UHGV virus genome: UHGV-0037186 | Strand: one strand, 5' to 3' | Origin: a virus | Length of the DNA stretch: 10,400 nt | Part shown: positions 1 to 10,400 of the stretch, one piece after another | Layout of the letters: each line of letters opens with the position of its first letter | Numbering within the stretch: the stretch's first letter is position 1 | The notes under the pieces: generated by a model | What the model was told of the DNA's origin: nothing | Databases searched by the model: none | Seen by the model: the letters and a program-made list of their open reading frames with translations, nothing else | Program-made: the position numbers and the translations under genes

Positions 1-26
1 GCGGAGACGATAAATAAGTAATAAAG

Positions 27-52
27 AAAAACCCGCCATTTGGCGGGTTTTA
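27..52. terminator. Intrinsic (rho-independent) terminator hairpin, symmetric so potentially bidirectional
   Basis: A-tract (27-31), stem CCCGCC (32-37) pairing with GGCGGG (42-47), 4-nt loop ATTT, then T-tract (48-51). Overlaps the stop codon (50-52, minus strand TAA) of the minus-strand ORF 50..610. Confidence 0.7.
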
Positions 53-610
53 TGCGCAAATTTTTTCGCAGTCTTGCGAGTGACTGAGTGAGCGAGTAAC
101 TCTCTCCACCTCATGAATGTCGCCCAACGATCTTATACGCAGGGCAAGATTCCACGTACTCAATGTGCGCGCGTTACGCACCAGTTCTTCCCGTGCTTTT
201 TCGTCTTTGCTGTCAAGACGACCGCAGTCGTTCAACCATTTAGCGACTTCCGCCCAGTCCCAGAGTGGAGACTGACCGCTGATACGCTGAACAGGGCAAG
301 GAAAATCACCTTTGCCACGTAATCCGTCTTTAAGCAGAGTAATAGCCTGGCGCGTTAAGCCAGAGAGTTGAGCAATATCGCTCAAGCCTACCAGTGCTGA
401 ATCTACCGATTCCACCACTGCGCCAATGCCTGCTGTTTCAATATCAAGGATTGCCGATTCGATTGCTTCATCTAAAGATTTAGCTTCTCGGTCAAATTCT
501 ACATACACTGAGTTTCCGTAGTAGCAAATGAGCGCATCATCGCAACCGTGGCTATACAGAGCATCTGCGACTACGCAGTACTGACTACAGGTTATCAGAA
601 TTATCCCCAT
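50..610 (-). CDS. Hypothetical protein, 186 aa; Cys-rich N-terminus (CxxxC ... CxxxxC) and HTH-like C-terminal segment (DIAQLSGLTRQAITLL ... WDWAEVAKWL); possible DNA-binding regulator
   Basis: Long uninterrupted minus-strand ORF ending exactly at the terminator hairpin 27-52. Protein-like composition. No recognisable Shine-Dalgarno upstream of the ATG at 608-610, so the start is uncertain. Function inferred only from motif-level resemblance. Confidence 0.5.
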   Translation of the reverse strand: MGIILITCSQYCVVADALYSHGCDDALICYYGNSVYVEFDREAKSLDEAIESAILDIETAGIGAVVESVDSALVGLSDIAQLSGLTRQAITLLKDGLRGKGDFPCPVQRISGQSPLWDWAEVAKWLNDCGRLDSKDEKAREELVRNARTLSTWNLALRIRSLGDIHEVERVTRSLSHSQDCEKICA

Positions 611-687
611 TTACATCAGCTTATCTACGTCAGCCCTCAAGTTCTTCAGCAAGCCAGCTCCACCGCCTGATTCCAACATGATAAAAT

Positions 688-711
688 TGATATACGAAAA
701 TAAGTATATAG
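688..711. promoter_or_regulatory. Inverted repeat in the divergent intergenic region (candidate operator)
   Basis: TGATATAC (688-695), 8-nt spacer, GTATATAG (704-711); arms are reverse complements at 7 of 8 positions (core ATATAC/GTATAT perfect). Lies between the minus-strand ORF start (610) and the plus-strand ATG at 720. Confidence 0.3.
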
Positions 712-719
712 ATAACATT

Positions 720-1151
720 ATGAGCGCCGATATCTACGAAAAAATCATGTCCGATCTGGAGTTCGACCGCGACAATCTGGAGGAAGTCTGGCGTCAGCAA
801 CCGCGTCTGTTGATGGAGTATGGCTCTAAGCTGGCACGGGCAGAACGTGAGGTTGCAGATGCAAAACTATCTCTCGACGCGATCGAGGCAAAAATCTATG
901 ACAACGAGCGTAAGAGCTTGAGTATGAATGGAATTAAGTTTAATGAATCCGTACTGGAAGCGAAGGTTAGAACCAACCCGCAATACCTCGCAAAGCGCCA
1001 GAAACTCGACGATGCTCGACACATTGCAGACCTGTACAAGCACGCTGTAGCCGCCTTCTCCCACCGCCGCGATATGATTGTCCAGGCGTCGAAGATGGCT
1101 ATCGTAGAGATAGAGCGTCTGGGGGCCGAACGATTCCATTTACCCCGTTAA
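720..1151 (+). CDS. Hypothetical small, predicted helix-rich protein (~143 aa); possible UvsY-like recombination mediator
   Basis: ORF in the track runs 678..1151. I prefer the in-frame ATG at 720 because the inverted repeat 688-711 would otherwise sit inside the coding sequence; neither start has a clear SD. The UvsY-like call is a from-memory pattern resemblance to T4 UvsY and the genomic context (next to gp32-like SSB and RecA-like genes), not a verified alignment. Confidence 0.5.
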   Translation: MSADIYEKIMSDLEFDRDNLEEVWRQQPRLLMEYGSKLARAEREVADAKLSLDAIEAKIYDNERKSLSMNGIKFNESVLEAKVRTNPQYLAKRQKLDDARHIADLYKHAVAAFSHRRDMIVQASKMAIVEIERLGAERFHLPR

Positions 1152-1270
1152 TTTATGCTAGATAGTAAGTAAGTACTGATCTATCATTCTTCTCGCTCGA
1201 AAGAGCCACGAACAAACGAACGCCCAATGCGCATAGCGCCAATGGCCACAATCACAACAAGGAGAAATAC

Positions 1271-2287
1271 ATGTCTAAGTCATTACTTGATCTGCTTAAC
1301 AAGACCCGTGGCGATATTGCTTCCAAACGTGGCAATAACATTGATTTGACCCGTCTGAAAGATGGCAATAACTATCTGCGCATTTTTCCGAACAAGGACG
1401 ATCCGAATGGCGTGTTCTTCCAGACTTTCGGTATGCACTACGTTAAGCATCAGAATGAGGAAGGCAAAGATGTAACCACCGCCTATATCTGCGAACAACA
1501 CACCCACGGCCACGCTTGCCAGCTGTGTGAGATGGTTATGGAAGGTCGCGCTCGCTTTAAGGGCAACAAAGCGATGGAAGAGCGCATTAATAGTATGCGT
1601 GCTACGCCGCGTTATCTGGTCAACGGTGTTCTGTCTGCGCGTGAAGACTTTGCGGACGCAGAGAAATGCCAGCTGATTGAGCTGCCGTCTACGGTCTTCG
1701 ACGATATCTGCAAAGTGATGTCCGAAGATATTGCGGACGATATTGGCAACCCACTGAGCAAAGAAGAAGGCTATGCGTTCCTGATTAAACGCACCGGTTC
1801 CGGTCGTGACACCAAGTACGACGTATCCCCGAAACGTAAAGTCTACAAAGGCGACATTCCTGAGAAGCTCTGGACTACCCAACACGATCTGATCGCATAT
1901 GCGAACCAGGCTGACGAAACTCGTTTGCTGTCCACGACTCGCACTATGGGTCGTCTGATTGGTATTGCGGCTCCGGCAGCAACTATGTCCTCACCAGCCA
2001 TTTCTTCCGCTGCAAAATCAGCCGCAGCTGGACTGCCAGGCTTTGGCTCTATCACTGGTCATACGGAAGGCGCAGCTGCTGTCGCTACAGCACATACTCC
2101 GGCGCCAGAGTCCACCAGCCTGGTTGATGAAGAGATCCTGCGTGCCGCTGAAGCTGAGTTCAAACCGGAAGAAGCGAAAGCTCCGGAAGCCACCGAAGCC
2201 GCAAGTGCTTCAGCATCTGCTGCCGCTGCATCTGTACCAGCTGATGAAGGTCTCGATGACCTGCTGGCTGAACTGGACGCTCTGTAA
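1271..2287 (+). CDS. Single-stranded DNA-binding protein, phage T4 gp32-like (Zn-binding core, low-complexity linker, acidic C-terminal tip)
   Basis: Strong SD AAGGAG (1259-1264) 6 nt before ATG 1271. N-terminal region resembles gp32 (LRIFPNKDDPNGVFF; Cys/His cluster CEQHTHGHACQLCE consistent with a Zn site). C-terminal ~120 aa is Ala/Ser/Pro/Thr-rich and ends in the acidic tip DEGLDDLLAELDAL typical of SSB interaction tails. Followed by a terminator. Confidence 0.75.
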   Translation: MSKSLLDLLNKTRGDIASKRGNNIDLTRLKDGNNYLRIFPNKDDPNGVFFQTFGMHYVKHQNEEGKDVTTAYICEQHTHGHACQLCEMVMEGRARFKGNKAMEERINSMRATPRYLVNGVLSAREDFADAEKCQLIELPSTVFDDICKVMSEDIADDIGNPLSKEEGYAFLIKRTGSGRDTKYDVSPKRKVYKGDIPEKLWTTQHDLIAYANQADETRLLSTTRTMGRLIGIAAPAATMSSPAISSAAKSAAAGLPGFGSITGHTEGAAAVATAHTPAPESTSLVDEEILRAAEAEFKPEEAKAPEATEAASASASAAAASVPADEGLDDLLAELDAL

Positions 2288-2304
2288 TCCCATAACGTAA
2301 CCAG

Positions 2305-2333
2305 TAAGGCGTCTGCGGACGCCTTACTTTTTG
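2305..2333 (+). terminator. Intrinsic terminator after the SSB gene
   Basis: Stem TAAGGCGTC (2305-2313) / GACGCCTTA (2318-2326), loop TGCG, followed by CTTTTTGG. The T-tract runs directly into the SD (GGAAGGAG 2333-2340) of the next gene, suggesting partial termination or attenuation. Confidence 0.75.
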
Positions 2334-2347
2334 GAAGGAGTGTACCG

Positions 2348-3292
2348 GTGAATTATCTCTTTGTGGACGGTAACAGCCTGGGCTATTACCACCAGCAATC
2401 CGACAAATTACACAACGGCGAGATGGAAGTTCAGGCGGCTTTTGGCTTCGTGAAGAACGTTCGTCGTTACGCCTCAATTCTCCATGCCCGGCCAATGATC
2501 TTGTGGGATGGATTCAGCGACAAACGTCGCGACTTCTACCCGGAGTACAAAGCGAACCGCGACGACGACCCGGACATGAAGAAGATGAAAGAAGGCTTTG
2601 CCATCCAGAAGCCGTACATCTTGAAAATGATGACCGCGCTGGGCGTTAACCAACTCATTGCAAAGGACGCAGAAGCGGATGACCTGGCTGGAATGCTGGT
2701 CTCTCGTCTGGCTCCGCAGCCGACCGTCGATCACATCTACCTGCTGACTGGCGATGGCGACTGGCTCCAGCTTGTTCGTGAGAACGTGAGCTGGATAAGC
2801 CTGCGTGAAGACGCCAAGCACAAGCAGGTGAACTTCGAACAGTTCGCAGAGCTGACCGGTCTGCCGACCCCACGCGCGTTTCTGGAAGCGAAAGCGTTGC
2901 AGGGCGATAACTCGGACAACATCAAAGGCGTAGGTGGCATTGGTGATGGTGGCGCGAAAGAGCTGCTTCATGAATGGGGAAGCGTGGCCGCAATGGTACG
3001 CGGCATTAACGACGGTTCCATTGTCATCAACAAAGGTCGCTATAAGACGGCATTCAACAAGCTGGCAAAGAACGCCTTCAACGAGAAGACGGGCTGCCGG
3101 ATGCTCGAAGCCTTTAAGCGCAACATGATGCTGATGAACCTTATCGACACAAAATTCCCACCCAGCGAAATCGAGTCGATTAAAGGCGCACGCGATATGA
3201 GCGCCTTTGAACAGATGTGTTACGAGCTGAATTTCCGTTCGTTTCTGGAAGATCTGGAAGTGTTTGTTCTGCCGTTTGAGAGGTATTGCTGA
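2348..3292 (+). CDS. 5'-3' exonuclease / flap endonuclease (FEN; Pol I 5'-nuclease / T5 D15 / T4 RNase H family)
   Basis: GTG start at 2348 preceded by strong SD GGAAGGAG. Hallmark motifs present: N-terminal LFVDGNSL, acidic clusters (AEADD, LLTGDGDW) and the helix-3-turn-helix DNA-binding motif GDNSDNIKGVGGIGDGGAKELL. Confidence 0.85.
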   Translation: MNYLFVDGNSLGYYHQQSDKLHNGEMEVQAAFGFVKNVRRYASILHARPMILWDGFSDKRRDFYPEYKANRDDDPDMKKMKEGFAIQKPYILKMMTALGVNQLIAKDAEADDLAGMLVSRLAPQPTVDHIYLLTGDGDWLQLVRENVSWISLREDAKHKQVNFEQFAELTGLPTPRAFLEAKALQGDNSDNIKGVGGIGDGGAKELLHEWGSVAAMVRGINDGSIVINKGRYKTAFNKLAKNAFNEKTGCRMLEAFKRNMMLMNLIDTKFPPSEIESIKGARDMSAFEQMCYELNFRSFLEDLEVFVLPFERYC

Positions 3293-3558
3293 TGCTGAAA
3301 TCCATCATTAATGGCGGGGCAACTACGCCAACCATGCTGGCAAAGGAGATTGTTTTCTGCCACGGCGAGCACGCTGTGGTAGCGCTGCCGAACATTCTGG
3401 GCGCTGCTGGCATTTCTGCTACTGAGCGTGAGTTCGCGCTGGTCAGTGAGCAGGTCGTGAAGATCATCGCTCGCGTCGCCAAACACCTGAACCACGACGC
3501 AATCAAGTTTGACGAAGCCGCTGCTTCGAAGCGAATCAACGAATCAAAAGGAGCCTAA
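3292..3558 (+). CDS. Hypothetical protein (~88 aa), unknown function
   Basis: ATG at 3292 overlaps the TGA stop of the upstream FEN gene (TGATG), with GAGAGG upstream, suggesting translational coupling. The track's TTG start at 3286 is unlikely. Ends 2 nt before the recA-like gene, whose SD lies in its 3' end. Confidence 0.55.
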   Translation: MLKSIINGGATTPTMLAKEIVFCHGEHAVVALPNILGAAGISATEREFALVSEQVVKIIARVAKHLNHDAIKFDEAAASKRINESKGA

Positions 3559-3560
3559 TC

Positions 3561-5900
3561 ATGGCAAAAGGCAAATCCGCACTGGCACTGGCGCTGAAAA
3601 AGAAAATCGGCAGCAATGACGAGATTCAGAAGGTCTCCCACTGGATTGACTCCGGTTTCCCTCCACTGAACAAAGCCATTTCCGGACGTTACGACGGTGG
3701 TTTTCCGTGTGGGCGTATCGTTGAAGTCTTCGGGCCACCAAGCGCGGGGAAATGTGTTACCGCAGACACCATGCTGCTGACGGAGCGTGGAATGGTAACA
3801 GTGAAAGAACTGTTTGAGATTGAGGGGCACAAAGCAACATGCACTACTCGCGATGTAGAGCATAACGTTGGACTCATCAATGAAAATGGCGTGATAGAGA
3901 AAACCTCACACCTGACATGGAACAACCGTCGCAAATTCAAGCGCATTAAGCTGGCATCAGGGGGTTACATCGAGGCTACGTTCCGTCACCCAATTCGTGT
4001 GGTTGACGACTTAGGCAATATCGTCTGGCGGTATGCTGAAAAAATCAGTGTAGGCGACACGATTCCTTCAATGGTTGGCACACATCAATTCGGCGATCAG
4101 CACTTGGATGCCAATATCGCAAAACTGATGGGCTATTTAATTGCTGACGGATACGTGGCCTCTGAAAATTCTGTGCATTTTTCTAACACAGATCCATTCA
4201 TCAAGGATGAGTACTACCGCCTCATTTCGCTGGTATCAGACAAGATGCCAGTTACGAGAAAACATAACGGCTCGGAAGACCATGTGCTGTTTAGCAAAGA
4301 GGTGCGTTCGCTGCTTTTTAAAGAATATGGTCTGGAGTATGAGAAAGCTGCTGGCAAGCAGGTTCCGTTGAGTGTGCGTCGCGCCAATAGCGAGGCTCAA
4401 ATTGCATTCCTTCGCGGCTACTTTGAGCTGGAATGCCACGTCAATGATGGTCGCTGCATTGAGGTTGTGAGCGCGAGTGGGCTGCTGCTACAGCAAATTC
4501 GCCTCATGCTCCTGAATCTGGGGATTACGTCAACTATCTCTGAAAAACACGTCGCAGGTTATAAAAACATATATTACCGGCTGTCATTCAGTGGCTCTAA
4601 CTACGACCTTTTCCTGTCAACGATTGGGTTCGAGTCTCCGGCTCGTTTAGCAGTGGCAACCAAACGGGACATTAGTTTTGACCGCACTTATTTAGGCTAC
4701 GTTCCGCACATCAGCGGCTTAGTGAAATCACTCTACGAGTCACTCACCAAGACCTCTCGTAAAGACTACGTTCTGGTAGATCACGTTATTGGCCGCGGCG
4801 ATCGTGTCGGAATAGACAAACTGCGAGAAATCTATGTCTCCTTCATTGGCAGAAAGAATCGTTTTAACGAGCATCTGTTTGCACAACTGGCAGCGGTAAT
4901 TGACTCTAACTTGTTCTACGACGAAGTCGTGGCTATTGAGGAAGGTGAAGCACCAACGTTCGACGTAGCGATGCCGGAAACACACTCTTTCTGGTCTAAC
5001 GGGATTATCAGCCACAACACATTCCTCGCGACGGCTGCGATGGTGTCAGCACAAAAACAGGATGGTCTGGCCGTATTCCTTGACCACGAAAACAGTTTCG
5101 ACGTTGGTCTGGCGGTAGCGAACGGACTGAACGCCGACGAAGACGACGGTCAGTGGGTCTACAAACAGCCGGATACCTTCGAAGACTCCGTAGAGCTGAT
5201 CGGCACAATCCTCAAGCTGGTGCGCGACGAAGAGCTTATTCCGGAAACAGCCCCTATCTGCATCGTAGCCGACTCTCTGGCGTCGATGGTTCCGAACTCG
5301 AAGGCTGAGAAGTTCGACAAGATGGCAGAAGGCACTGCGAAGGACAAAGATCAGCTGAACATGAACGACAACACGGCGCTGGCGCGCGCGACAAGTGCGA
5401 ACTTCCCTACTCTGGCGCTTTGGGCGCGTAAGTACAACGCGTGCATCATCTTCTTGAACCAGGTGCGTACCAAAATTGGTGTGATGTTTGGCGATCCGAC
5501 TACGTCTCCGGGTGGCGACTCTCCGAAGTTCTACGCGTCGGTGCGCATCCGTCTGGGTGCATCCGTCATGAAGGATGGCAAAGAGAAGATCGGACAGGAC
5601 GTTGGCGCCGAGTGCATTAAAAACAAAGTCGCACCTCCGTTTGGCAAATGCTCATGGAAATTCTACTTCGACCCGACTCGCGGGCTGGACGTCGTCGAGT
5701 CTCTGGTTGAATACATGCTGGAGGAAGGATACCTGCCCAAGAGCGCCAGCGGGCGTGTGGAAATTGGCGAGAAGAAATACACCAAATCACAGATCGTCGA
5801 GATGTACCGGGAGAAGCCATTAGCTGAAATCATTGCTGCGTTACAGGCAATAGATGACAGGCGCGAGAAGACATCACCGACAGATGAATTAGAAGATTAA
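3561..5900 (+). CDS. recA: RecA-family recombinase precursor (779 aa) containing an in-frame intein; predicted mature RecA ~357 aa
   Basis: SD AAAGGAG (3547-3553) 7 nt before ATG. N-extein ends GRIVEVFGPPSAGK (compare E. coli RecA GRIVEIYGPESSGKT). C-extein resumes with T and carries RecA-typical segments (FLNQVRTKIGVMFGDPTTSPGGDSPKFYASVRIRLG, compare E. coli [35 protein letters not shown]). Closer to bacterial RecA than to T4 UvsX, by recall. Followed by a terminator. Confidence 0.9.
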   Translation: MAKGKSALALALKKKIGSNDEIQKVSHWIDSGFPPLNKAISGRYDGGFPCGRIVEVFGPPSAGKCVTADTMLLTERGMVTVKELFEIEGHKATCTTRDVEHNVGLINENGVIEKTSHLTWNNRRKFKRIKLASGGYIEATFRHPIRVVDDLGNIVWRYAEKISVGDTIPSMVGTHQFGDQHLDANIAKLMGYLIADGYVASENSVHFSNTDPFIKDEYYRLISLVSDKMPVTRKHNGSEDHVLFSKEVRSLLFKEYGLEYEKAAGKQVPLSVRRANSEAQIAFLRGYFELECHVNDGRCIEVVSASGLLLQQIRLMLLNLGITSTISEKHVAGYKNIYYRLSFSGSNYDLFLSTIGFESPARLAVATKRDISFDRTYLGYVPHISGLVKSLYESLTKTSRKDYVLVDHVIGRGDRVGIDKLREIYVSFIGRKNRFNEHLFAQLAAVIDSNLFYDEVVAIEEGEAPTFDVAMPETHSFWSNGIISHNTFLATAAMVSAQKQDGLAVFLDHENSFDVGLAVANGLNADEDDGQWVYKQPDTFEDSVELIGTILKLVRDEELIPETAPICIVADSLASMVPNSKAEKFDKMAEGTAKDKDQLNMNDNTALARATSANFPTLALWARKYNACIIFLNQVRTKIGVMFGDPTTSPGGDSPKFYASVRIRLGASVMKDGKEKIGQDVGAECIKNKVAPPFGKCSWKFYFDPTRGLDVVESLVEYMLEEGYLPKSASGRVEIGEKKYTKSQIVEMYREKPLAEIIAALQAIDDRREKTSPTDELED
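3753..5018 (+). mobile_element. Intein (422 aa) with LAGLIDADG homing-endonuclease domain, inserted in the Walker A P-loop of the RecA-family gene
   Basis: Starts with Cys (codon 65, TGT 3753-3755) immediately after GPPSAGK. Ends ...GIISHN (His-Asn, codons 485-486) followed by Thr+1 (the Walker A Thr). Block B-like T-x-x-H (ATFRHPI). LAGLIDADG motifs LMGYLIADGYV (~4124-4156) and FLRGYFELECHV (~4407-4442). Length is a multiple of 3 (1266 nt) and in-frame. Confidence 0.85.
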
Positions 5901-5905
5901 TTTTC

Positions 5906-5930
5906 AGGCGTCCGAATGGACGCCTTTATA
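5906..5930 (+). terminator. Intrinsic terminator after the recA-like gene
   Basis: Stem AGGCGTCC (5906-5913) / GGACGCCT (5918-5925), loop GAAT, followed by TTTATA. Stem sequence is closely related to the SSB terminator stem. Confidence 0.7.
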
Positions 5931-5990
5931 CCTTGAAAATATATAAGCACTTACTTACCATCTACACACAATAGCCACATAGGAAAACAC

Positions 5991-6191
5991 ATGATCAAAC
6001 TCTATCTGATGGCAGTGGCTACAGGTATATCTGTAGTTTTCATCTACTGTTTGCTGGTTCCGTCGCTGATCTCGGCTAAAAGCAATATTGCCGTAATGCT
6101 TGGAATCATTGTTGCTTTTGGCGCTCCTGTTATCGGCTTTAATGTTGGTCGTAACTTTCTGAAGTCACTAATTAATTCGAAGGGGAAGTAA
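5991..6191 (+). CDS. Small hydrophobic membrane protein (66 aa, two predicted TM helices)
   Basis: AGGA (5981-5984) 6 nt before ATG. Two long hydrophobic stretches (LYLMAVATGISVVFIYCLLVPSLI and IAVMLGIIVAFGAPVIGF) with a basic C-terminus. Its stop overlaps the SD region of the next gene. Confidence 0.5.
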   Translation: MIKLYLMAVATGISVVFIYCLLVPSLISAKSNIAVMLGIIVAFGAPVIGFNVGRNFLKSLINSKGK

Positions 6192-6194
6192 GTA

Positions 6195-6386
6195 ATGAAG
6201 AAAGGTTTACTGGCAGTGATCGTGGCTGCTGTTTGCACAATGGGTCTTACAGGCTGCGATCGTGTTGAGCCTGGGTACGTTGGCATCAAAGTAAACAAAT
6301 TGGGTGAAGACAAAGGTATCGGTGAAGTTGTCGGCGTTGGCCGTCAGTGGACTGGTCTGAATACCGAGCTGTACACCTCTCTTTAA
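6195..6386 (+). CDS. Small lipoprotein (63 aa); possibly a truncated N-terminal fragment of an SPFH/band-7-type lipoprotein
   Basis: SD AAGGGGA 7 nt before ATG. Signal peptide MKKGLLAVIVAAVCTMG plus lipobox L-T-G-C. The mature part (VEPGYVGIKVNKLGEDKGIGEVV...) resembles the start of an SPFH domain, but the ORF stops after ~40 residues of it. Confidence 0.55.
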   Translation: MKKGLLAVIVAAVCTMGLTGCDRVEPGYVGIKVNKLGEDKGIGEVVGVGRQWTGLNTELYTSL

Positions 6387-6409
6387 GTCATCTTAAATGA
6401 CTCTGAGGT

Positions 6410-6457
6410 GTCTGTTAAACCTGTGGCGATTCAGTCTATTAAACCTGTGGCGATTCA
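6410..6457. repeat. Tandem direct repeat, 2 x 24 bp (GTCTGTTAAACCTGTGGCGATTCA / GTCTATTAAACCTGTGGCGATTCA), one mismatch
   Basis: Read directly from the sequence at 6410-6433 and 6434-6457. Lies in the 232-bp AT-rich non-coding spacer between the lipoprotein ORF and hsdM. Confidence 0.8.
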
Positions 6458-6618
6458 CTTTATGGTGTCATAAACTTAAATCTAGCGCCGGGTAGAACAA
6501 GTTAATCGAACGATGTAGCGGCCATTTAGGCGTTACAGAAAGAACAGAATTTTAAATTTATAGTGAAGCCGTTGCAGCAACTTTGTGGGGTGCAACCAAC
6601 ACTGAACAGGAAAAGAAA

Positions 6619-9042
6619 ATGGATCATAGTGTACATAACAAGCTCATCTCATTTATTTGGAACATTGCCGACGACTGTTTACGTGATGTGTACGTTCGCG
6701 GTAAGTACCGCGATGTGATTTTACCTATGGTGGTATTACGACGTTTAGATACGTTACTTGAACCCACCAAAGAAGCCGTGCTTGAAGAGGTCAAGTTCCA
6801 AAAAGAAGAGATGCAAGCCACGGAGCTTGATGATGAACCATTGAAGGCGGCTAGTGGTTATGTTTTTTACAATACATCTAAATGGACCCTGAAATCCCTG
6901 TTCAACACCGCAACGAATAACCAACAGATATTACTCGCCAACTTTGAAGAGTACCTGCTTGGCTTTAGCGATAATGTTAAAGAAATCATTGAATGCTTTA
7001 ACCTCAAGTTGCAAATTCGTCACATGGCCTCAAAGCAAGTCCTTCTTGATGTCGTCGAAAAGTTTGTTTCCCCTTACATCAACTTAACTCATGAAACGGT
7101 CGAAGACCCAGATGGCAACAAGATGCCAGCCCTTACTAACCTGGGTATGGGGTACGTGTTCGAAGAGTTGATCCGTAAGTTCAACGAAGAAAACAACGAA
7201 GAAGCCGGTGAGCACTTTACACCTAGGGAAGTGATTGAGCTGATGACACACTTGGTTTTTGACCCAGTGAAAGAGCAGCTACCATTGACCATGACCGTTT
7301 ACGACCCTGCGTGTGGTAGCGGTGGTATGCTCACTGAATCTCAAAACTTCATTGAAGAGAAATACCCGAACGACAGCCGAGATATTTACCTTTACGGCAA
7401 AGAGATCAATGACGAGACCTACGCGATTTGTAAATCGGACATGATGATCAAAGGCAACAACCCTGAGAACATCAAAGTAGGCTCAACCTTGTCTACCGAC
7501 GAGTTTGCGGCTTCACGCTTTGACTTTATGTTGTCTAACCCGCCATACGGTAAGAGTTGGGCGTCTGAACAGAAGTACATTAAAGACGGCAGTGATGTGA
7601 TTGACCCGCGTTTTAAGGTTAGCCTGAAAGACTATTGGGGAAATCTCGAAGTGGTGGATGCCACGCCACGTTCGAGTGATGGCCAGCTGCTTTTCTTAAT
7701 GGAGATGGTCAACAAGATGAAAGATCCGAGCGTAAGTCCATTAGGCAGCCGGATTGCCTCTGTTCATAACGGCTCATCGCTCTTTACCGGTGATGCGGGC
7801 GGTGGCGAAAGTAATATTCGTCGCTTCATCATTGAAAACGACATGCTAGATGCCATCGTTCAGTTACCTAATAACCTGTTCTATAACACTGGCATTACCA
7901 CTTACATTTGGGTGTTGAGCAACAATAAACCTGAGGCGCGTAAAGGTAAGGTGCAATTAATTGATGCCAGCTTGCTCTACCGTAAGTTGCGCAAGAACTT
8001 AGGTAACAAAAACTGCGAATTTGCGCCTGAGCACATCACGGAAATTACCGATACTTACCTCGCGTGTAAGGATGTTGAAAGAGCACTGGATGCAAACAAT
8101 GATCCTGTTGGCATCGCCAGTAAGGTATTCAGCAATGACGATTTTGGCTACTACAAAGTCACTATCGAGCGCCCAGATCGCCGCAAAGCCAAGTTTACTC
8201 AAGATGCCATAGCCCCACTGCGTTTTGATAAGCAACTTAGTGAAGTGATGGAGTACGTGTACGCAGAGCACGGCGAACGTGTTTACGAAAAAACTGGCTA
8301 CGGGTCAGATCAGAAAAAGAGCTTCTTAAAATCCATCGAGAAAGACATTCTTTCTTGGTGTGAAGATAACGACATCAGTCTCAATGCTAAGGCTAAGGCC
8401 AAACTGCTTGATGTGAAACACTGGCTGGCGCTAAAAGCATTGCTTGAAACTGCACAAACGCTGATGGCTGACATCGGTAGCATTGAATTTGATGACTTCA
8501 ATAGCTTTAAAACCCAAGTTGATAAATCGCTAAAAGCCCATGCTATTAAGCTTTCAGCACCTGAGAAAAATGCCATTCTTCACGCGGTGAGCTGGTATGA
8601 CGAAACCGCCAAGAAAGTGGTTAAAAAGGTAGTTAAATTAACGGGTGATAAATTAAACGACCTGCTGGAGCGCTATGAGTGTGAAGTCGCTGACTTGCCA
8701 GATTTTGGTTATTACCCCGTTCCTTCAGCAGAAGGCGGTAAAAAAGGCGAGTATATCACTTACGAGACCAATTCAGACCTGCGAGATACAGAATCTGTTC
8801 CATTAAAGCAAAGCATTTACCAGTACTTCCTAGATGAAGTGAAGCCTCATGTCGATGAAGCATGGATAAACCTAGATACGGTAAAAATTGGCTATGAAAT
8901 CAGCTTCAATAAGTATTTCTACCGTCATAAACCGCTGCGTAGTTTAGAAGAGGTCGCAACCGACATCATCAACCTAGAACAAAAAGCCGAAGGTTTGATT
9001 GCGCAGATTCTTGGTGCGGAAGTAAAAAAGGTTCAGGGGTAA
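6619..9042 (+). CDS. hsdM: Type I restriction-modification system, DNA methyltransferase subunit M (N6-adenine), unusually long (~807 aa)
   Basis: SD AGGA (6608-6611) 7 nt before ATG 6619; the track's 6583 start is an upstream TTG extension. HsdM N-terminal domain signature (LISFIWNIADDCLRDVYVRGKYRDVILPMVVLRRLD), FTPREV, AdoMet motif I DPACGSGGML (~7303-7332) and catalytic motif IV NPPYG (~7537-7551). About 330 aa extend beyond the catalytic core. Confidence 0.9.
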   Translation: MDHSVHNKLISFIWNIADDCLRDVYVRGKYRDVILPMVVLRRLDTLLEPTKEAVLEEVKFQKEEMQATELDDEPLKAASGYVFYNTSKWTLKSLFNTATNNQQILLANFEEYLLGFSDNVKEIIECFNLKLQIRHMASKQVLLDVVEKFVSPYINLTHETVEDPDGNKMPALTNLGMGYVFEELIRKFNEENNEEAGEHFTPREVIELMTHLVFDPVKEQLPLTMTVYDPACGSGGMLTESQNFIEEKYPNDSRDIYLYGKEINDETYAICKSDMMIKGNNPENIKVGSTLSTDEFAASRFDFMLSNPPYGKSWASEQKYIKDGSDVIDPRFKVSLKDYWGNLEVVDATPRSSDGQLLFLMEMVNKMKDPSVSPLGSRIASVHNGSSLFTGDAGGGESNIRRFIIENDMLDAIVQLPNNLFYNTGITTYIWVLSNNKPEARKGKVQLIDASLLYRKLRKNLGNKNCEFAPEHITEITDTYLACKDVERALDANNDPVGIASKVFSNDDFGYYKVTIERPDRRKAKFTQDAIAPLRFDKQLSEVMEYVYAEHGERVYEKTGYGSDQKKSFLKSIEKDILSWCEDNDISLNAKAKAKLLDVKHWLALKALLETAQTLMADIGSIEFDDFNSFKTQVDKSLKAHAIKLSAPEKNAILHAVSWYDETAKKVVKKVVKLTGDKLNDLLERYECEVADLPDFGYYPVPSAEGGKKGEYITYETNSDLRDTESVPLKQSIYQYFLDEVKPHVDEAWINLDTVKIGYEISFNKYFYRHKPLRSLEEVATDIINLEQKAEGLIAQILGAEVKKVQG

Positions 9043-9048
9043 GTCGTT

Positions 9049-10350
9049 ATGATGAAGATTTCTGAAATGCCGAAATATGAGGTTTATAAGGATTCAGGTG
9101 TTGAATGGCTAGGGGATATTCCTGCGTCTTGGAGCTTATTAGCTAATAAGCACATCTTTCGCTTGAAGAAAAAACAGGTTGGAAAACGCTCAAGCGAATA
9201 TGATTTGCTATCGCTTACTCTCAGAGGTGTGATTAAGCGTGATATGGAAAACCCAGAGGGTAAGTTCCCAGCAGAGTTCGATACTTATCAAGAAGTGCAG
9301 TGTGGAGATTTCATTTTCTGCTTGTTCGACGTGGAAGAAACACCCAGAACTGTTGGGTTGTCGCCATTTAATGGGATGATTACTGGTGCATATACCGTTT
9401 TTGAACTAAATGACAATTTTGATAATAGGTTTTTATACTATTTTTATATGAACCTTGATGCAAAAAAGATGCTTAAACCGCTTTATCGTGGCCTGAGAAA
9501 TACAATTCCTAAAGATTCATTTCTGAGTTTTAAGACGTTTGTTCCTCCCCATGAGCAACAAACCCGTATCGCCAACTTCCTAGACAAGAAAACCGCTCTA
9601 ATCGACGAAGCGATTTCGATCAAAGAGCAGCAAATTAGCCTGCTGAAAGAGCGTAAGCAGATCATCATCCAACAGGCGGTGACCCAAGGGCTTGATCCCA
9701 ATGTGCCAATGAAAGACTCCGGTGTGGATTGGATTGGTAAGATTCCAGCGCATTGGGATATTGTGCCAGGATTTACAGTATTTAAAGAGGGAAAAGACTC
9801 GAACAAAGGGATGATTGAATCACAAGTTTTATCTCTCAGTTATGGAAATGTTATTATAAAACCAGAGGAGAAATTGGTTGGGCTTGTACCTGAGTCTTTT
9901 GAAACGTATCAAATAGCTTTACCTGGCGACATCATAATACGTTGTACAGACTTGCAAAATGACAAAACGAGCTTGAGAACGGGTATAGTGCGGAATAAAG
10001 GAATTATAACTAGTGCTTACCTTAACTTACGGTTGAAAACGGAACATTCAGCTGAATTTATGCATTATTTTCTTCATGTATTAGATATAACTAAAACTAT
10101 ATATCGTTTTGGTTCTGGGCTGAGACAAAACTTGAGTTATAAAGATTTTAAGCATATGAGAATATTGATGCCTCCTAAAGCAGAGCAAATTGAAATAGTA
10201 AATTACATCAATAATCAAGTAGAAGTGACTGAGTCATCTATTGATCTGATTAAAAATAAAATAGAAAAATTAAAAGAATACAAAACCACCCTGATCAACA
10301 GCGCCGTGACAGGAAAAATAAAAATCACCCCAGAAATGGTTGAGCAATAG
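9049..10350 (+). CDS. hsdS: Type I restriction-modification system, specificity subunit S (two target-recognition domains)
   Basis: Starts 6 nt after the hsdM stop (translational coupling). Internal duplicated architecture typical of HsdS: TRD1 begins SGVEWLGDIPASWSL, TRD2 begins SGVDWIGKIPAHWDI; conserved central region (PPHEQQTRIANFLDKKTALIDEAI) and C-terminal region (PPKAEQIEIVNYINNQVEVTESSI). The 3' half is very AT-rich. Confidence 0.85.
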   Translation: MMKISEMPKYEVYKDSGVEWLGDIPASWSLLANKHIFRLKKKQVGKRSSEYDLLSLTLRGVIKRDMENPEGKFPAEFDTYQEVQCGDFIFCLFDVEETPRTVGLSPFNGMITGAYTVFELNDNFDNRFLYYFYMNLDAKKMLKPLYRGLRNTIPKDSFLSFKTFVPPHEQQTRIANFLDKKTALIDEAISIKEQQISLLKERKQIIIQQAVTQGLDPNVPMKDSGVDWIGKIPAHWDIVPGFTVFKEGKDSNKGMIESQVLSLSYGNVIIKPEEKLVGLVPESFETYQIALPGDIIIRCTDLQNDKTSLRTGIVRNKGIITSAYLNLRLKTEHSAEFMHYFLHVLDITKTIYRFGSGLRQNLSYKDFKHMRILMPPKAEQIEIVNYINNQVEVTESSIDLIKNKIEKLKEYKTTLINSAVTGKIKITPEMVEQ

Positions 10351-10359
10351 GACGCGAAT

Positions 10360-10400
10360 ATGTTCACGGTAAATCATCAAACCAACAGGATTAGTCCTGT
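10360..10400 (+). CDS. 5' end of an unidentified downstream ORF (MFTVNHQTNRISP...), truncated by the window edge
   Basis: ATG at 10360, 9 nt after the hsdS stop, with a weak AGGA upstream. Only 13 codons visible; could be hsdR or an accessory gene, and cannot be identified from this fragment. Confidence 0.2.
   Translation, partial: MFTVNHQTNRISP

What the first reader, a model, noticed from the sequence alone, without database searches (positions are those of the whole stretch)
8059..9042. HsdM carries a ~330-aa C-terminal extension beyond the methyltransferase core
Classical Type I M subunits (for example EcoKI HsdM, roughly 500-550 aa from memory) end shortly after the catalytic domain. 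Here the N-terminal HsdM domain and the motif I and IV core occupy roughly the first 470 residues, followed by a long extension rich in charged and helical sequence (...KAKAKLLDVKHWLALKALLETAQTLMADIG... ending KIGYEISFNKYFYRHKPLRSLEEVATDIINLEQKAEGL). The extension may be an extra interaction, regulatory or sensor domain, or may mark a distinct Type I subfamily.
Basis: partly seen in the sequence, partly recalled or inferred. Interest (0 to 1): 0.45.

Follow-up and report, generated by a model that had tools for sequence, protein, structure and literature searches.

The report
Long HsdM with tandem-repeat helical insert
The extra ~320 residues of this Type I methylase subunit are real but ordinary: they are the normal C-terminal module of a very widespread HsdM family, split by a ~190-residue insert made mostly of two tandem helical repeats whose function is still unknown.

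Summary
The hsdM ORF (window 6619-9042, 807 aa) has HsdM_N at aa 10-149 and N6_Mtase at aa 177-487. The last 320 aa match no Pfam, NCBIfam or PDB entry.

It is not a simple terminal extension:
- Family members of 573-611 aa keep a beta segment (query aa 497-524) and a tail (aa 713-807).
- The tail ends in a long helix, which I take to be the counterpart of the classical HsdS-binding tail.
- Between these two pieces the query carries an insert (aa 525-712): two tandem ~60-aa three-helix repeats (aa 534-604 and 602-664) plus a small alpha/beta piece.
- Repeat copy number (0, 1 or 2) tracks HsdM length across species.

The family is common. At least 598 species genomes across many phyla hold it, and 2411 clusters at 50% identity match the C-terminal region. 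It is nearly always found in hsdM-hsdS-hsdR operons. PADLOC and PHROGs already hold full-length models of it.

Here it is cargo on an SSU5-like E. coli phage-plasmid, together with hsdS, a DUF4268 gene and a normal 1005-aa hsdR.

The role of the insert is inferred, not shown. My best guess is a structural arm beside the HsdM-HsdS helix bundle. Interest is low.

The parts
6619..9042 (+). hsdM, 807 aa, with the stop codon at 9040-9042. It is the M subunit of a Type I R-M system.
   Evidence: ORF listing. RefSeq CDS WP_023135725.1 has the same coordinates in pB379_2. Pfam HsdM_N plus N6_Mtase. PADLOC MTase_I PDLC03029 matches aa 2-798 at E=5e-268.
6646..7065 (+). HsdM N-terminal helical domain (aa 10-149).
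   Evidence: Pfam PF12161, E=6.5e-23. AlphaFold2 predicts it as helical.
7147..8079 (+). Gamma-class N6-adenine methyltransferase catalytic domain (aa 177-487). Motif I is YDPACGSGGML (aa 228-238) and motif IV is NPPY (aa 307-310).
   Evidence: Pfam PF02384, E=4.1e-60. PDB sequence and fold matches to HsdM subunits. The motifs are read directly from the translation.
8107..8190 (+). Beta segment A of the family's conserved C-terminal module (aa 497-524, ...SKVFSNDDFGYYKVTIERP...).
   Evidence: It is conserved in short and long family members alike. AlphaFold2 predicts three strands at aa 500-524. It shows 68% mean identity among 36 long forms.
8218..8430 (+). Helical repeat 1 of the insert (aa 534-604).
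   Evidence: hhalign self-comparison of the insert profile gives probability 90.5% and E=1.4e-6. The repeat HMM hits aa 534-604. Predicted helices are at aa 538-556, 574-583 and 590-596.
8422..8610 (+). Helical repeat 2 of the insert (aa 602-664).
   Evidence: Same self-alignment. The repeat HMM hits aa 602-664. Predicted helices are at aa 599-619, 627-640 and 647-656. W602 and N628 are invariant in alignment A3.
8611..8754 (+). Small alpha/beta piece that completes the insert (aa 665-712). It is well represented only in the longest forms.
   Evidence: Alignment-column occupancy is 0.84 in forms with an ERP-to-GYEI distance of at least 215 residues and 0.38-0.60 in shorter classes. Predicted strands are at aa 668-673 and helices at aa 677-696.
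8755..8904 (+). Beta segment B of the conserved C-terminal module (aa 713-762, ...SDLRDTESVPL...EVKPHVDEAWI...KIGYEIS).
   Evidence: It is present in every family member, including the 573-611 aa forms, with column occupancy of 1.0 in all size classes. Predicted strands are at aa 711-715, 723-728 and 749-759.
8905..9039 (+). C-terminal tail (aa 763-807, FNKYFY...PLRSLEEV...LEQKAEGLIAQIL) with a long terminal helix at aa 776-798. This is the inferred HsdS-binding helix.
   Evidence: It is conserved in all members. The helix is predicted by AlphaFold2. hhalign places it in register with classical HsdM tails only weakly (E=0.0027, probability 11%). The role of the classical tail is taken from PMC2647291 and PMC9613975.
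9049..10350 (+). hsdS, 433 aa, with two target-recognition domains. It starts 6 nt after hsdM ends.
   Evidence: ORF listing. Pfam Methylase_S matches in two stretches. PADLOC Specificity_I matches at E=3.6e-99. The DUF4268 gene and the 1005-aa hsdR follow just outside the window.

Best explanation
This is the M subunit of a complete and otherwise conventional Type I restriction-modification system: hsdM, hsdS, a DUF4268 gene, then hsdR. The system is carried as cargo on an SSU5-like phage-plasmid.

The protein belongs to a very large HsdM clade in which the classical short C-terminal tail is elaborated. After the catalytic domain comes a small beta module, and the protein ends in an amphipathic helix. 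By position and by analogy with EcoKI, PacII and EcoR124I, that helix packs against the HsdS coiled coil and holds M2S1 together.

In this protein the beta module is interrupted by a ~190-aa insert. The insert has two tandem ~60-aa three-helix repeats plus a small alpha/beta piece. It arose by duplication, and its copy number varies among orthologues (0, 1 or 2).

The insert is not needed for the core chemistry, but it is kept under purifying selection. I infer that it is a rigid accessory arm projecting from the M subunit next to the M-S helix bundle. Its likely job is to enlarge the surface used for assembly or positioning of the complex, most plausibly contacts with HsdR or with a neighbouring subunit. 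It is unlikely to be an enzyme or a ligand sensor.

Shown: the domain anatomy, the repeats, the copy-number variation, the distribution of the family, and the operon context.
Inferred: HsdS binding by the terminal helix, and the arm or assembly role of the insert.
For: Anatomy
- Pfam domains end at aa 487.
- Alignment A1 shows that 573-611 aa relatives keep aa 497-524 and aa 713-807 but lack aa ~525-712.
- The distance between the ERP and GYEI motifs falls into discrete size classes in 66 species loci.

Repeats
- hhalign self-match of the insert profile: probability 90.5%, E=1.4e-6.
- Repeat copies per size class: 0 in 3 of 3 and in 7 of 7 short forms, 1 in 18 of 18, and 2 in 47 of 47.

Folded, not disordered
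- AlphaFold2 mean pLDDT is 85.7 for the full protein and 84.9 for the C-terminal region. The insert is mostly above 90.

Selection
- The insert is 43-48% identical among 36 long forms from many phyla, against 68-72% for the core. Several residues are conserved throughout, such as W602 and N628.

Canonical system
- hsdS follows 6 nt downstream.
- HsdR is 1005 aa with HSDR_N, SWI2/SNF2, ResIII and T1R_D3 domains.
- hsdM, hsdS and hsdR lie on the same strand in nearly all of 80 species loci.

Tail role
- EcoKI aa 470-529 contact the HsdS coiled coil, and removing about 43 C-terminal residues abolishes assembly (PMC2647291).
- In PacII the M tails form a four-helix bundle with the S coiled coil (PMC9613975).
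- Natural M-S fusions occur directly after this tail within the family (P0150, 1021 aa).

No enzymatic or sensor signature
- No Pfam family is shared across members.
- The insert is unrelated to HsdM_N or to the catalytic domain.
- No structural relative in PDB or BFVD.
Against: - No result places the insert in space relative to HsdS, HsdR or DNA. Model coordinates could not be inspected and no complex could be predicted.
- The match between this tail and classical tails is weak (hhalign probability 11%).
- No HsdR or HsdS segment is gained or lost together with the insert. A dedicated partner surface on those subunits is therefore not visible.
- The insert is mildly acidic (mean net charge -3.4, pI 5.9) with only eight conserved basic positions. 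That argues neither for nor against protein contacts.
- The alignment behind the structure model is shallow, with only 4 clusters at 70% identity.
Confidence: 0.6

Rival explanations
1. The insert is a DNA-contacting arm. It would touch the DNA flanking the recognition site, for example to guide DNA toward HsdR or to stabilise the closed clamp.
For: - Eight basic positions are conserved in at least 80% of long forms: R521, R535, K591, K593, K639, K644, K670 and K673.
- There is a precedent. [quoted passage not shown]
Against: - The insert has a negative net charge in most members (mean -3.4, range -13 to +3).
- The PacII paper states that the S coiled coil, next to which the M tail sits, makes no DNA contact (PMC9613975).
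- BsaXI does not appear among the structural matches of the C-terminal model.
Confidence: 0.2
2. The insert is a regulatory or sensor domain. It might sense phage anti-restriction proteins or a metabolite, or it might control restriction alleviation.
For: - It is variable and modular between orthologues. That pattern is seen in surfaces engaged in arms races.
- It is less conserved than the core.
- Accessory defence-candidate genes sit inside some of these operons. Here this is a DUF4268 / PDC-S11 gene.
Against: - There is no known sensor or ligand-binding domain, no consistent Pfam hit and no structural relative.
- The variation is in copy number of one repeat, not in rapid sequence turnover. 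Several residues are invariant across phyla.
- The DUF4268 gene was found in only 2 of 80 loci, so it cannot be a general partner.
Confidence: 0.15
3. The long ORF is an artefact: two genes fused by a sequencing or assembly error, or a recent chimera.
For: None was found. The only hint is that many short 'proteins' match the C-terminal region in metagenomes.
Against: - The short hits inspected almost all begin inside HsdM sequence, so they are truncated gene calls. The exception is one singleton chimera, P0158.
- Full-length proteins of 802-831 aa at 89-100% identity occur in many genera.
- The same architecture occurs at 38-79% identity in dozens of phyla.
- The identical gene is present in four independent plasmid records and in 62 complete E. 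coli genomes.
- The conserved module lies on both sides of the insert.
Confidence: 0.01

Closest known systems
Classical Type I HsdM subunits (EcoKI, family IA; EcoR124I, family IC; PacII M1/M2; Sau1-type)
   Same: - It has an HsdM_N domain, a gamma-class N6-adenine MTase domain and a C-terminal helix.
- It is encoded next to hsdS and hsdR.
- PDB sequence hits range from E=2.8e-26 to 1.5e-9 over aa ~118-488.
- Foldseek gives TM-scores (normalised to target length) of 0.58-0.73 for the N-terminal and catalytic parts.
   Different: - It is 807 aa, against 500-545 aa.
- A beta module plus two helical repeats (aa ~497-762) separate the catalytic domain from the terminal helix.
- It scores below the TIGR00497 cutoff.
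- The tail motif GYEISFNKYFY replaces NDYNLNxxRYV.
Short members of the same HsdM clade (573-611 aa; for example P0267, P0234 and the 611-aa protein of L002)
   Same: - They share the N-terminal domain, the catalytic domain, beta segment A, beta segment B and the tail, at 47% overall identity.
- The 611-aa L002 gene is followed by hsdS. Orthologues of 660-720 aa sit in full hsdM-hsdS-hsdR operons.
   Different: They have a 10-20 aa Lys-rich linker where the query has the ~190-aa insert with two repeats.
BsaXI (Type IIB) 'knob' domain
   Same: It is a multi-helical domain inserted between beta strands just after a gamma-MTase domain, in an enzyme that uses a Type I-like S subunit (PMC11997821).
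   Different: - The knob is a single domain, not a tandem repeat.
- BsaXI is an R-M fusion protein.
KpnBI, the Type IE prototype
   Same: From my memory only: its hsdM was reported as about 2.6 kb, which would make it another long M subunit in an enterobacterium.
   Different: This was not tested. The paper is not held and no KpnBI sequence was available. Other long PADLOC MTase_I models (810-932 positions) match the query only over aa ~7-488, so their C-terminal regions are different.

Membership tests
Type I R-M modification subunit (HsdM) | HsdM N-terminal helical domain | tested here: met
   Pfam PF12161, aa 10-149, E=6.5e-23, above the cutoff.
Type I R-M modification subunit (HsdM) | Gamma-class N6-adenine MTase domain with motif I (xxGxGG) and motif IV (NPPY/F) | tested here: met
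   Pfam PF02384, aa 177-487, E=4.1e-60. YDPACGSGGML and NPPY are read from the translation.
Type I R-M modification subunit (HsdM) | Encoded together with hsdS and with an ATP-dependent hsdR | tested here: met
   hsdS lies at 9049-10350. The 1005-aa HsdR, with HSDR_N, SWI2/SNF2 and ResIII domains, lies 2.6 kb further on in the identical plasmid. The same operon is found in about 60 other species.
Type I R-M modification subunit (HsdM) | C-terminal helical tail that binds the HsdS conserved coiled coil | tested here: inconclusive
   A long terminal helix at aa 776-798 is predicted and conserved. hhalign to classical tails gives the expected register, but only at E=0.0027 and probability 11%. 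No complex model could be made.
Type I R-M modification subunit (HsdM) | m6A methylation of a bipartite site, and a requirement for HsdM in restriction | not testable with these tools
   This needs methylome sequencing and phage or plasmid restriction assays.
Classical hsdM equivalog (NCBIfam TIGR00497) | Score above the curated cutoff of 242.75 bits | tested here: not met
   It scores 107.5 bits and matches only aa 177-487.
PADLOC Type I methyltransferase model PDLC03029 / PHROG 34860 | End-to-end match to the family profile | tested here: met
   PDLC03029 matches aa 2-798 against profile positions 2-660 of 661, E=5e-268. phrog_34860 matches aa 1-807 with 1644 bits.
BsaXI-type helical 'knob' insertion | Structural similarity of the inserted helical domain | tested here: not met
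   [not shown]
Type IE (KpnBI) family | Sequence similarity or subunit complementation with KpnBI | not tested
   No KpnBI sequence or paper was available.

The most novel reading that the evidence does not exclude
The tandem three-helix repeats could be a previously undescribed, copy-number-variable 'arm' domain of Type I M subunits with a specific job. One option is that it sets the geometry or stoichiometry of HsdR loading. Another is that it shields the M2S1 clamp against DNA-mimic anti-restriction proteins. In either case repeat number (0, 1 or 2) would tune restriction behaviour between lineages.
Probability: 0.12. Interest if true: 0.5.

Novelty: already known. Interest (0 to 1): 0.2.

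Why it matters
It matters little for biology at large. This is a standard Type I R-M system on a phage-plasmid, and long M subunits are commonplace in sequence databases.

There are two modest points of value:
1. A very widespread HsdM clade carries a well-folded C-terminal region of 90-330 aa. This region has no Pfam model and no solved structure. Its anatomy is now defined as a beta module, 0 to 2 helical repeats and a terminal helix, which would allow a domain family to be built.
2. The natural series of orthologues with 0, 1 or 2 repeats gives a ready-made experiment on what the region does in Type I assembly.

Tried and rejected
- Pfam, NCBIfam, PHROGs and PADLOC scans of the C-terminal region gave no named domain. 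DUF6650 (E=0.014) and PhoU_div (best E=5e-4, in 10 of 25 members) are below threshold and inconsistent across members.
- PDB sequence search of the last 320 aa returned only ribosomal eL14 noise at E of 0.14 or worse.
- I tested whether the insert is a duplicate of HsdM_N or of the catalytic domain. It is not (hhalign probability below 1%).
- I tested whether an HsdR or HsdS segment co-varies with the insert. None of 5 aa or more does, apart from 5 residues at the HsdS C-terminus.
- I considered a stand-alone version of the domain. The short database hits inspected are truncated HsdM gene calls. One 393-aa protein (P0158) with a different N-terminus is a singleton.
- I checked whether P. aeruginosa PAO1 PA2735, a characterised HsdM, belongs to the family. 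The cloning primer implies a start of MQKRQ, and none of the retrieved homologues has that start, so no link is claimed.
- I looked for the KpnBI (Type IE) paper. It is not held.
Full report
**What is there**

The window is part of an SSU5-like phage-plasmid of E. coli. Positions 5900-10400 are 100% identical to four plasmid records, including pB379_2 (NZ_CP090457.1). Positions ~20-6378 are 80-92% identical to Salmonella phage SSU5 and its relatives. Similarity to those phages stops at ~6374-6378.

From there on the window carries hsdM (6619-9042, 807 aa from the ATG; the ORF listing reports the longer TTG form) and hsdS (9049-10350, 433 aa). In the identical plasmid the operon continues with a 365-aa DUF4268 protein and a 1005-aa HsdR. 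That HsdR has HSDR_N, SWI2/SNF2, ResIII and T1R_D3-like domains. HsdR and HsdS are therefore of ordinary size and architecture.

**Check of the observation**

- Pfam places HsdM_N at aa 10-149 and N6_Mtase at aa 177-487, with nothing significant afterwards.
- NCBIfam gives nothing for the last 327 aa. The classical hsdM equivalog TIGR00497 scores well below its cutoff.
- Every solved HsdM aligns only up to query aa ~480-488.
- The last 320 aa alone find nothing in the PDB by sequence.

The roughly 320 unannotated residues are real and sit at the stated coordinates. One caveat applies. EcoKI HsdM has about 120 aa beyond the point where the profile alignment to this family stops (EcoKI 407 of 529). 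The true excess over a classical M subunit is therefore about 200 aa.

**How common it is**

- A search of 5.8 billion proteins filled its list of 120 with proteins of 772-831 aa at 89-100% identity. They come from Vibrio, Proteus, Providencia, Morganella, Shewanella, Klebsiella, Enterobacter, Actinobacillus and others, and sources name them Type I subunit M.
- An exhaustive HMMER search with only the C-terminal 320 aa found 2411 clusters at 50% identity with E up to 1e-3, and 904 with E up to 1e-10.
They span Pseudomonadota, Bacteroidota, Spirochaetota, Cyanobacteria, Bacillota, Planctomycetota, Chloroflexota and the archaeon Methanoculleus.
- In about 60 of the 80 loci kept, hsdS follows on the same strand. 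In most of these an HsdR homologous to this one also follows; where it is full length it is ~950-1100 aa.
- PADLOC has a Type I MTase model that matches aa 2-798 (E=5e-268). PHROGs has a full-length family.
- In E. coli, 62 of 5426 complete genomes carry the gene at 95% nucleotide identity or more: 40 on chromosomes and 22 on plasmids.
- Of the 17 PADLOC Type I MTase models listed among the query's top 25 matches, 12 are longer than 600 positions. Long M subunits as such are therefore not unusual.

**Anatomy of the extension**

I aligned the query with diverse relatives of 573-799 aa (alignment A1). The 573-611 aa members keep two blocks:
- a segment right after the catalytic domain (query aa 497-524, consensus SKIFxNxDFGYxxVTVERP);
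- a final ~95 aa (query aa 713-807, consensus DxExIPL..I..YF..EV.PH.PDAW....K.GYEISF.KYFY...PLR.LEEI..DI..LE.E..GL).

In those short members the two blocks are joined by a short Lys-rich linker. The query has about 190 aa (aa 525-712) at that position. The 'extension' is therefore a conserved C-terminal module with an insertion inside it.

Across 66 species, the distance between the ERP and GYEI motifs falls into discrete classes: about 110, 135-165, 190 and 222-251 residues. The query has 238 and the three short forms have about 57-61.

**The insert is a tandem repeat**

A profile self-comparison of the insert aligns insert positions 16-88 with positions 84-145 (hhalign probability 90.5%, E=1.4e-6). 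This corresponds to query aa 534-604 and 602-664.

Each unit is three helices in the AlphaFold2 model. The helices are at aa 538-556, 574-583 and 590-596 in the first unit, and at aa 599-619, 627-640 and 647-656 in the second. Each unit ends at a conserved Trp (W602, W659).

I built an HMM from the two units and counted non-overlapping matches per size class:

| ERP-to-GYEI distance | Repeat copies detected | Proteins |
|---|---|---|
| below 70 | 0 | 3 of 3 |
| 100-130 | 0 | 7 of 7 |
| 130-170 | 1 | 18 of 18 |
| 180 and above | 2 | 47 of 47 |

The longest forms, including the query, add a small alpha/beta piece (aa 665-712). The insert is unrelated to HsdM_N or to the catalytic domain.

**Structure**

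AlphaFold2 with a 71-sequence alignment gives mean pLDDT 85.7 and pTM 0.77. Most of aa 500-760 is above 90. A separate model of aa 488-807 gives 84.9 with the same secondary structure. The underlying alignment is shallow, with only four clusters at 70% identity.

- Foldseek of the full model against the PDB returns only HsdM subunits, aligned over the N-terminal and catalytic parts.
- BFVD gives nothing.
- The AFDB library was not available.

**Constraint and partners**

Among 36 long forms from many phyla, the insert is 43-48% identical to the query. The N-terminal and catalytic domains are 68-72% identical, and the flanking module is 60-68%. The insert is thus less constrained but clearly maintained.

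It is mildly acidic (mean net charge -3.4, pI 5.9) and has eight conserved basic positions.

No HsdR or HsdS segment of 5 aa or more is gained or lost with the insert, apart from 5 residues at the HsdS C-terminus. HsdR averages 1028 aa in long-insert systems and 1010 aa in short-insert systems.

The DUF4268 gene was found in only 2 of 80 loci, so it cannot be a general partner.

**Mechanism**

What is established for classical enzymes:
- The EcoKI HsdM C-terminal domain (aa 470-529) contacts the HsdS coiled coil. Removing about 43 C-terminal residues prevents assembly (PMC2647291).
- In PacII the two M tails and the S conserved regions form a four-helix bundle (PMC9613975).

Classical tails read ...NDYNLNIPRYV, then a linker, then a helix. 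This family reads ...GYEISFNKYFY, then PLRSLEEV, then a helix. hhalign puts the two in that register, but the score is weak (E=0.0027, probability 11%).

Natural M-S fusions occur directly after this tail within the family (P0150, 1021 aa). By its title and abstract, a published study joined EcoKI hsdM and hsdS by removing the frameshift between them (PMC3510504, listed).

From this I infer that aa ~776-798 is the HsdS-binding helix. I also infer that the beta module and the repeats project from the M subunit next to that bundle.

Because orthologues without repeats have the same operons, the insert is an accessory. My best guess is an assembly or positioning arm that contacts HsdR or another subunit (confidence about 0.35 for that specific role). 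The alternatives are a DNA-contacting arm (0.2) or a regulatory or sensor surface (0.15). The BsaXI 'knob' is a precedent for a helical domain inserted after a gamma-MTase domain that takes part in S-subunit and DNA contacts (PMC11997821). No fold similarity to it was found.

**Verdict**

The interpretation as a distinct subfamily is right, but the family is common and already catalogued. It is not a fusion artefact.

What this analysis adds is the anatomy: insertion rather than extension, two tandem helical repeats, and copy-number variation among orthologues. The function of the repeats remains untested. I found no paper that describes them within the searches I could run.

Noticed in passing
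window 3561-5900 (+): The 779-aa RecA-like recombinase is interrupted by an intein with a LAGLIDADG homing endonuclease. The intein sits inside the Walker A motif: GPPSAGK|C...SHN|T. Pfam finds RecA in two stretches, plus Intein_splicing and LAGLIDADG_3. RefSeq names the whole ORF 'LAGLIDADG family homing endonuclease'.
   Followed up: partly
L001 16461-17558 (just beyond the window end, between hsdS and hsdR): A 365-aa gene lies inside the Type I operon. Its C-terminal half is DUF4268 (E=3.5e-36), and the whole protein matches the PADLOC defence candidate PDC-S11 (E=4.8e-176). The N-terminal half reads like a PD-(D/E)xK nuclease motif (DLLALD...IIENK), which is my reading of the sequence. It was found in only 2 of 80 related loci.
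   Followed up: partly
window 6374-6460: A ~62-bp element sits at the exact point where synteny with SSU5 ends and the R-M cargo begins. It has a perfect hairpin (ACACCTC...AGTCATCTTAAATGACT...GAGGTGT), followed by two direct copies of TAAACCTGTGGCGATTCA. The hairpin plus the first copy recurs in 1195 of 5426 complete E. coli genomes, with up to 16 copies per genome, mostly unannotated. It also matches phage SfIV at 97% identity. It may be a small mobile or recombination-site repeat that marks the cargo boundary.
   Followed up: partly
L001 20670-24700 (downstream of hsdR, outside the window): A group II intron reverse transcriptase/maturase (ltrA) and an IS110 transposase lie between hsdR and the plasmid repA region. 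An IS3 element lies upstream, near dnaE. The R-M system therefore sits in a region rich in mobile elements.
   Followed up: no
window 678-3560 (+): A T4-like recombination and replication module precedes the recombinase: a UvsY-like mediator, a gp32-like SSB (1271-2287) and a 5'-3' exonuclease (2348-3292). These names come from the annotation of the related phages Cyrano and SSU5.
   Followed up: no
proteins P0150 (1021 aa) and P0260 (1148 aa); loci L067, L062, L081: Some relatives are natural fusions. P0150 continues from the HsdM tail straight into an HsdS-like region. P0260 replaces the tail after GYEINF with an unrelated ~430-aa C-terminal region. The HsdM-matching ORFs called in L067, L062 and L081 are 1199, 982 and 900 aa long.
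   Followed up: no
protein P0158 (393 aa, metagenomic): This is the one case where the C-terminal region (insert plus tail) follows an unrelated ~98-aa N-terminus (…ECEWVEFKHNF…) instead of an HsdM core. It is a singleton, so it may be an assembly chimera or a rearranged gene.
   Followed up: no
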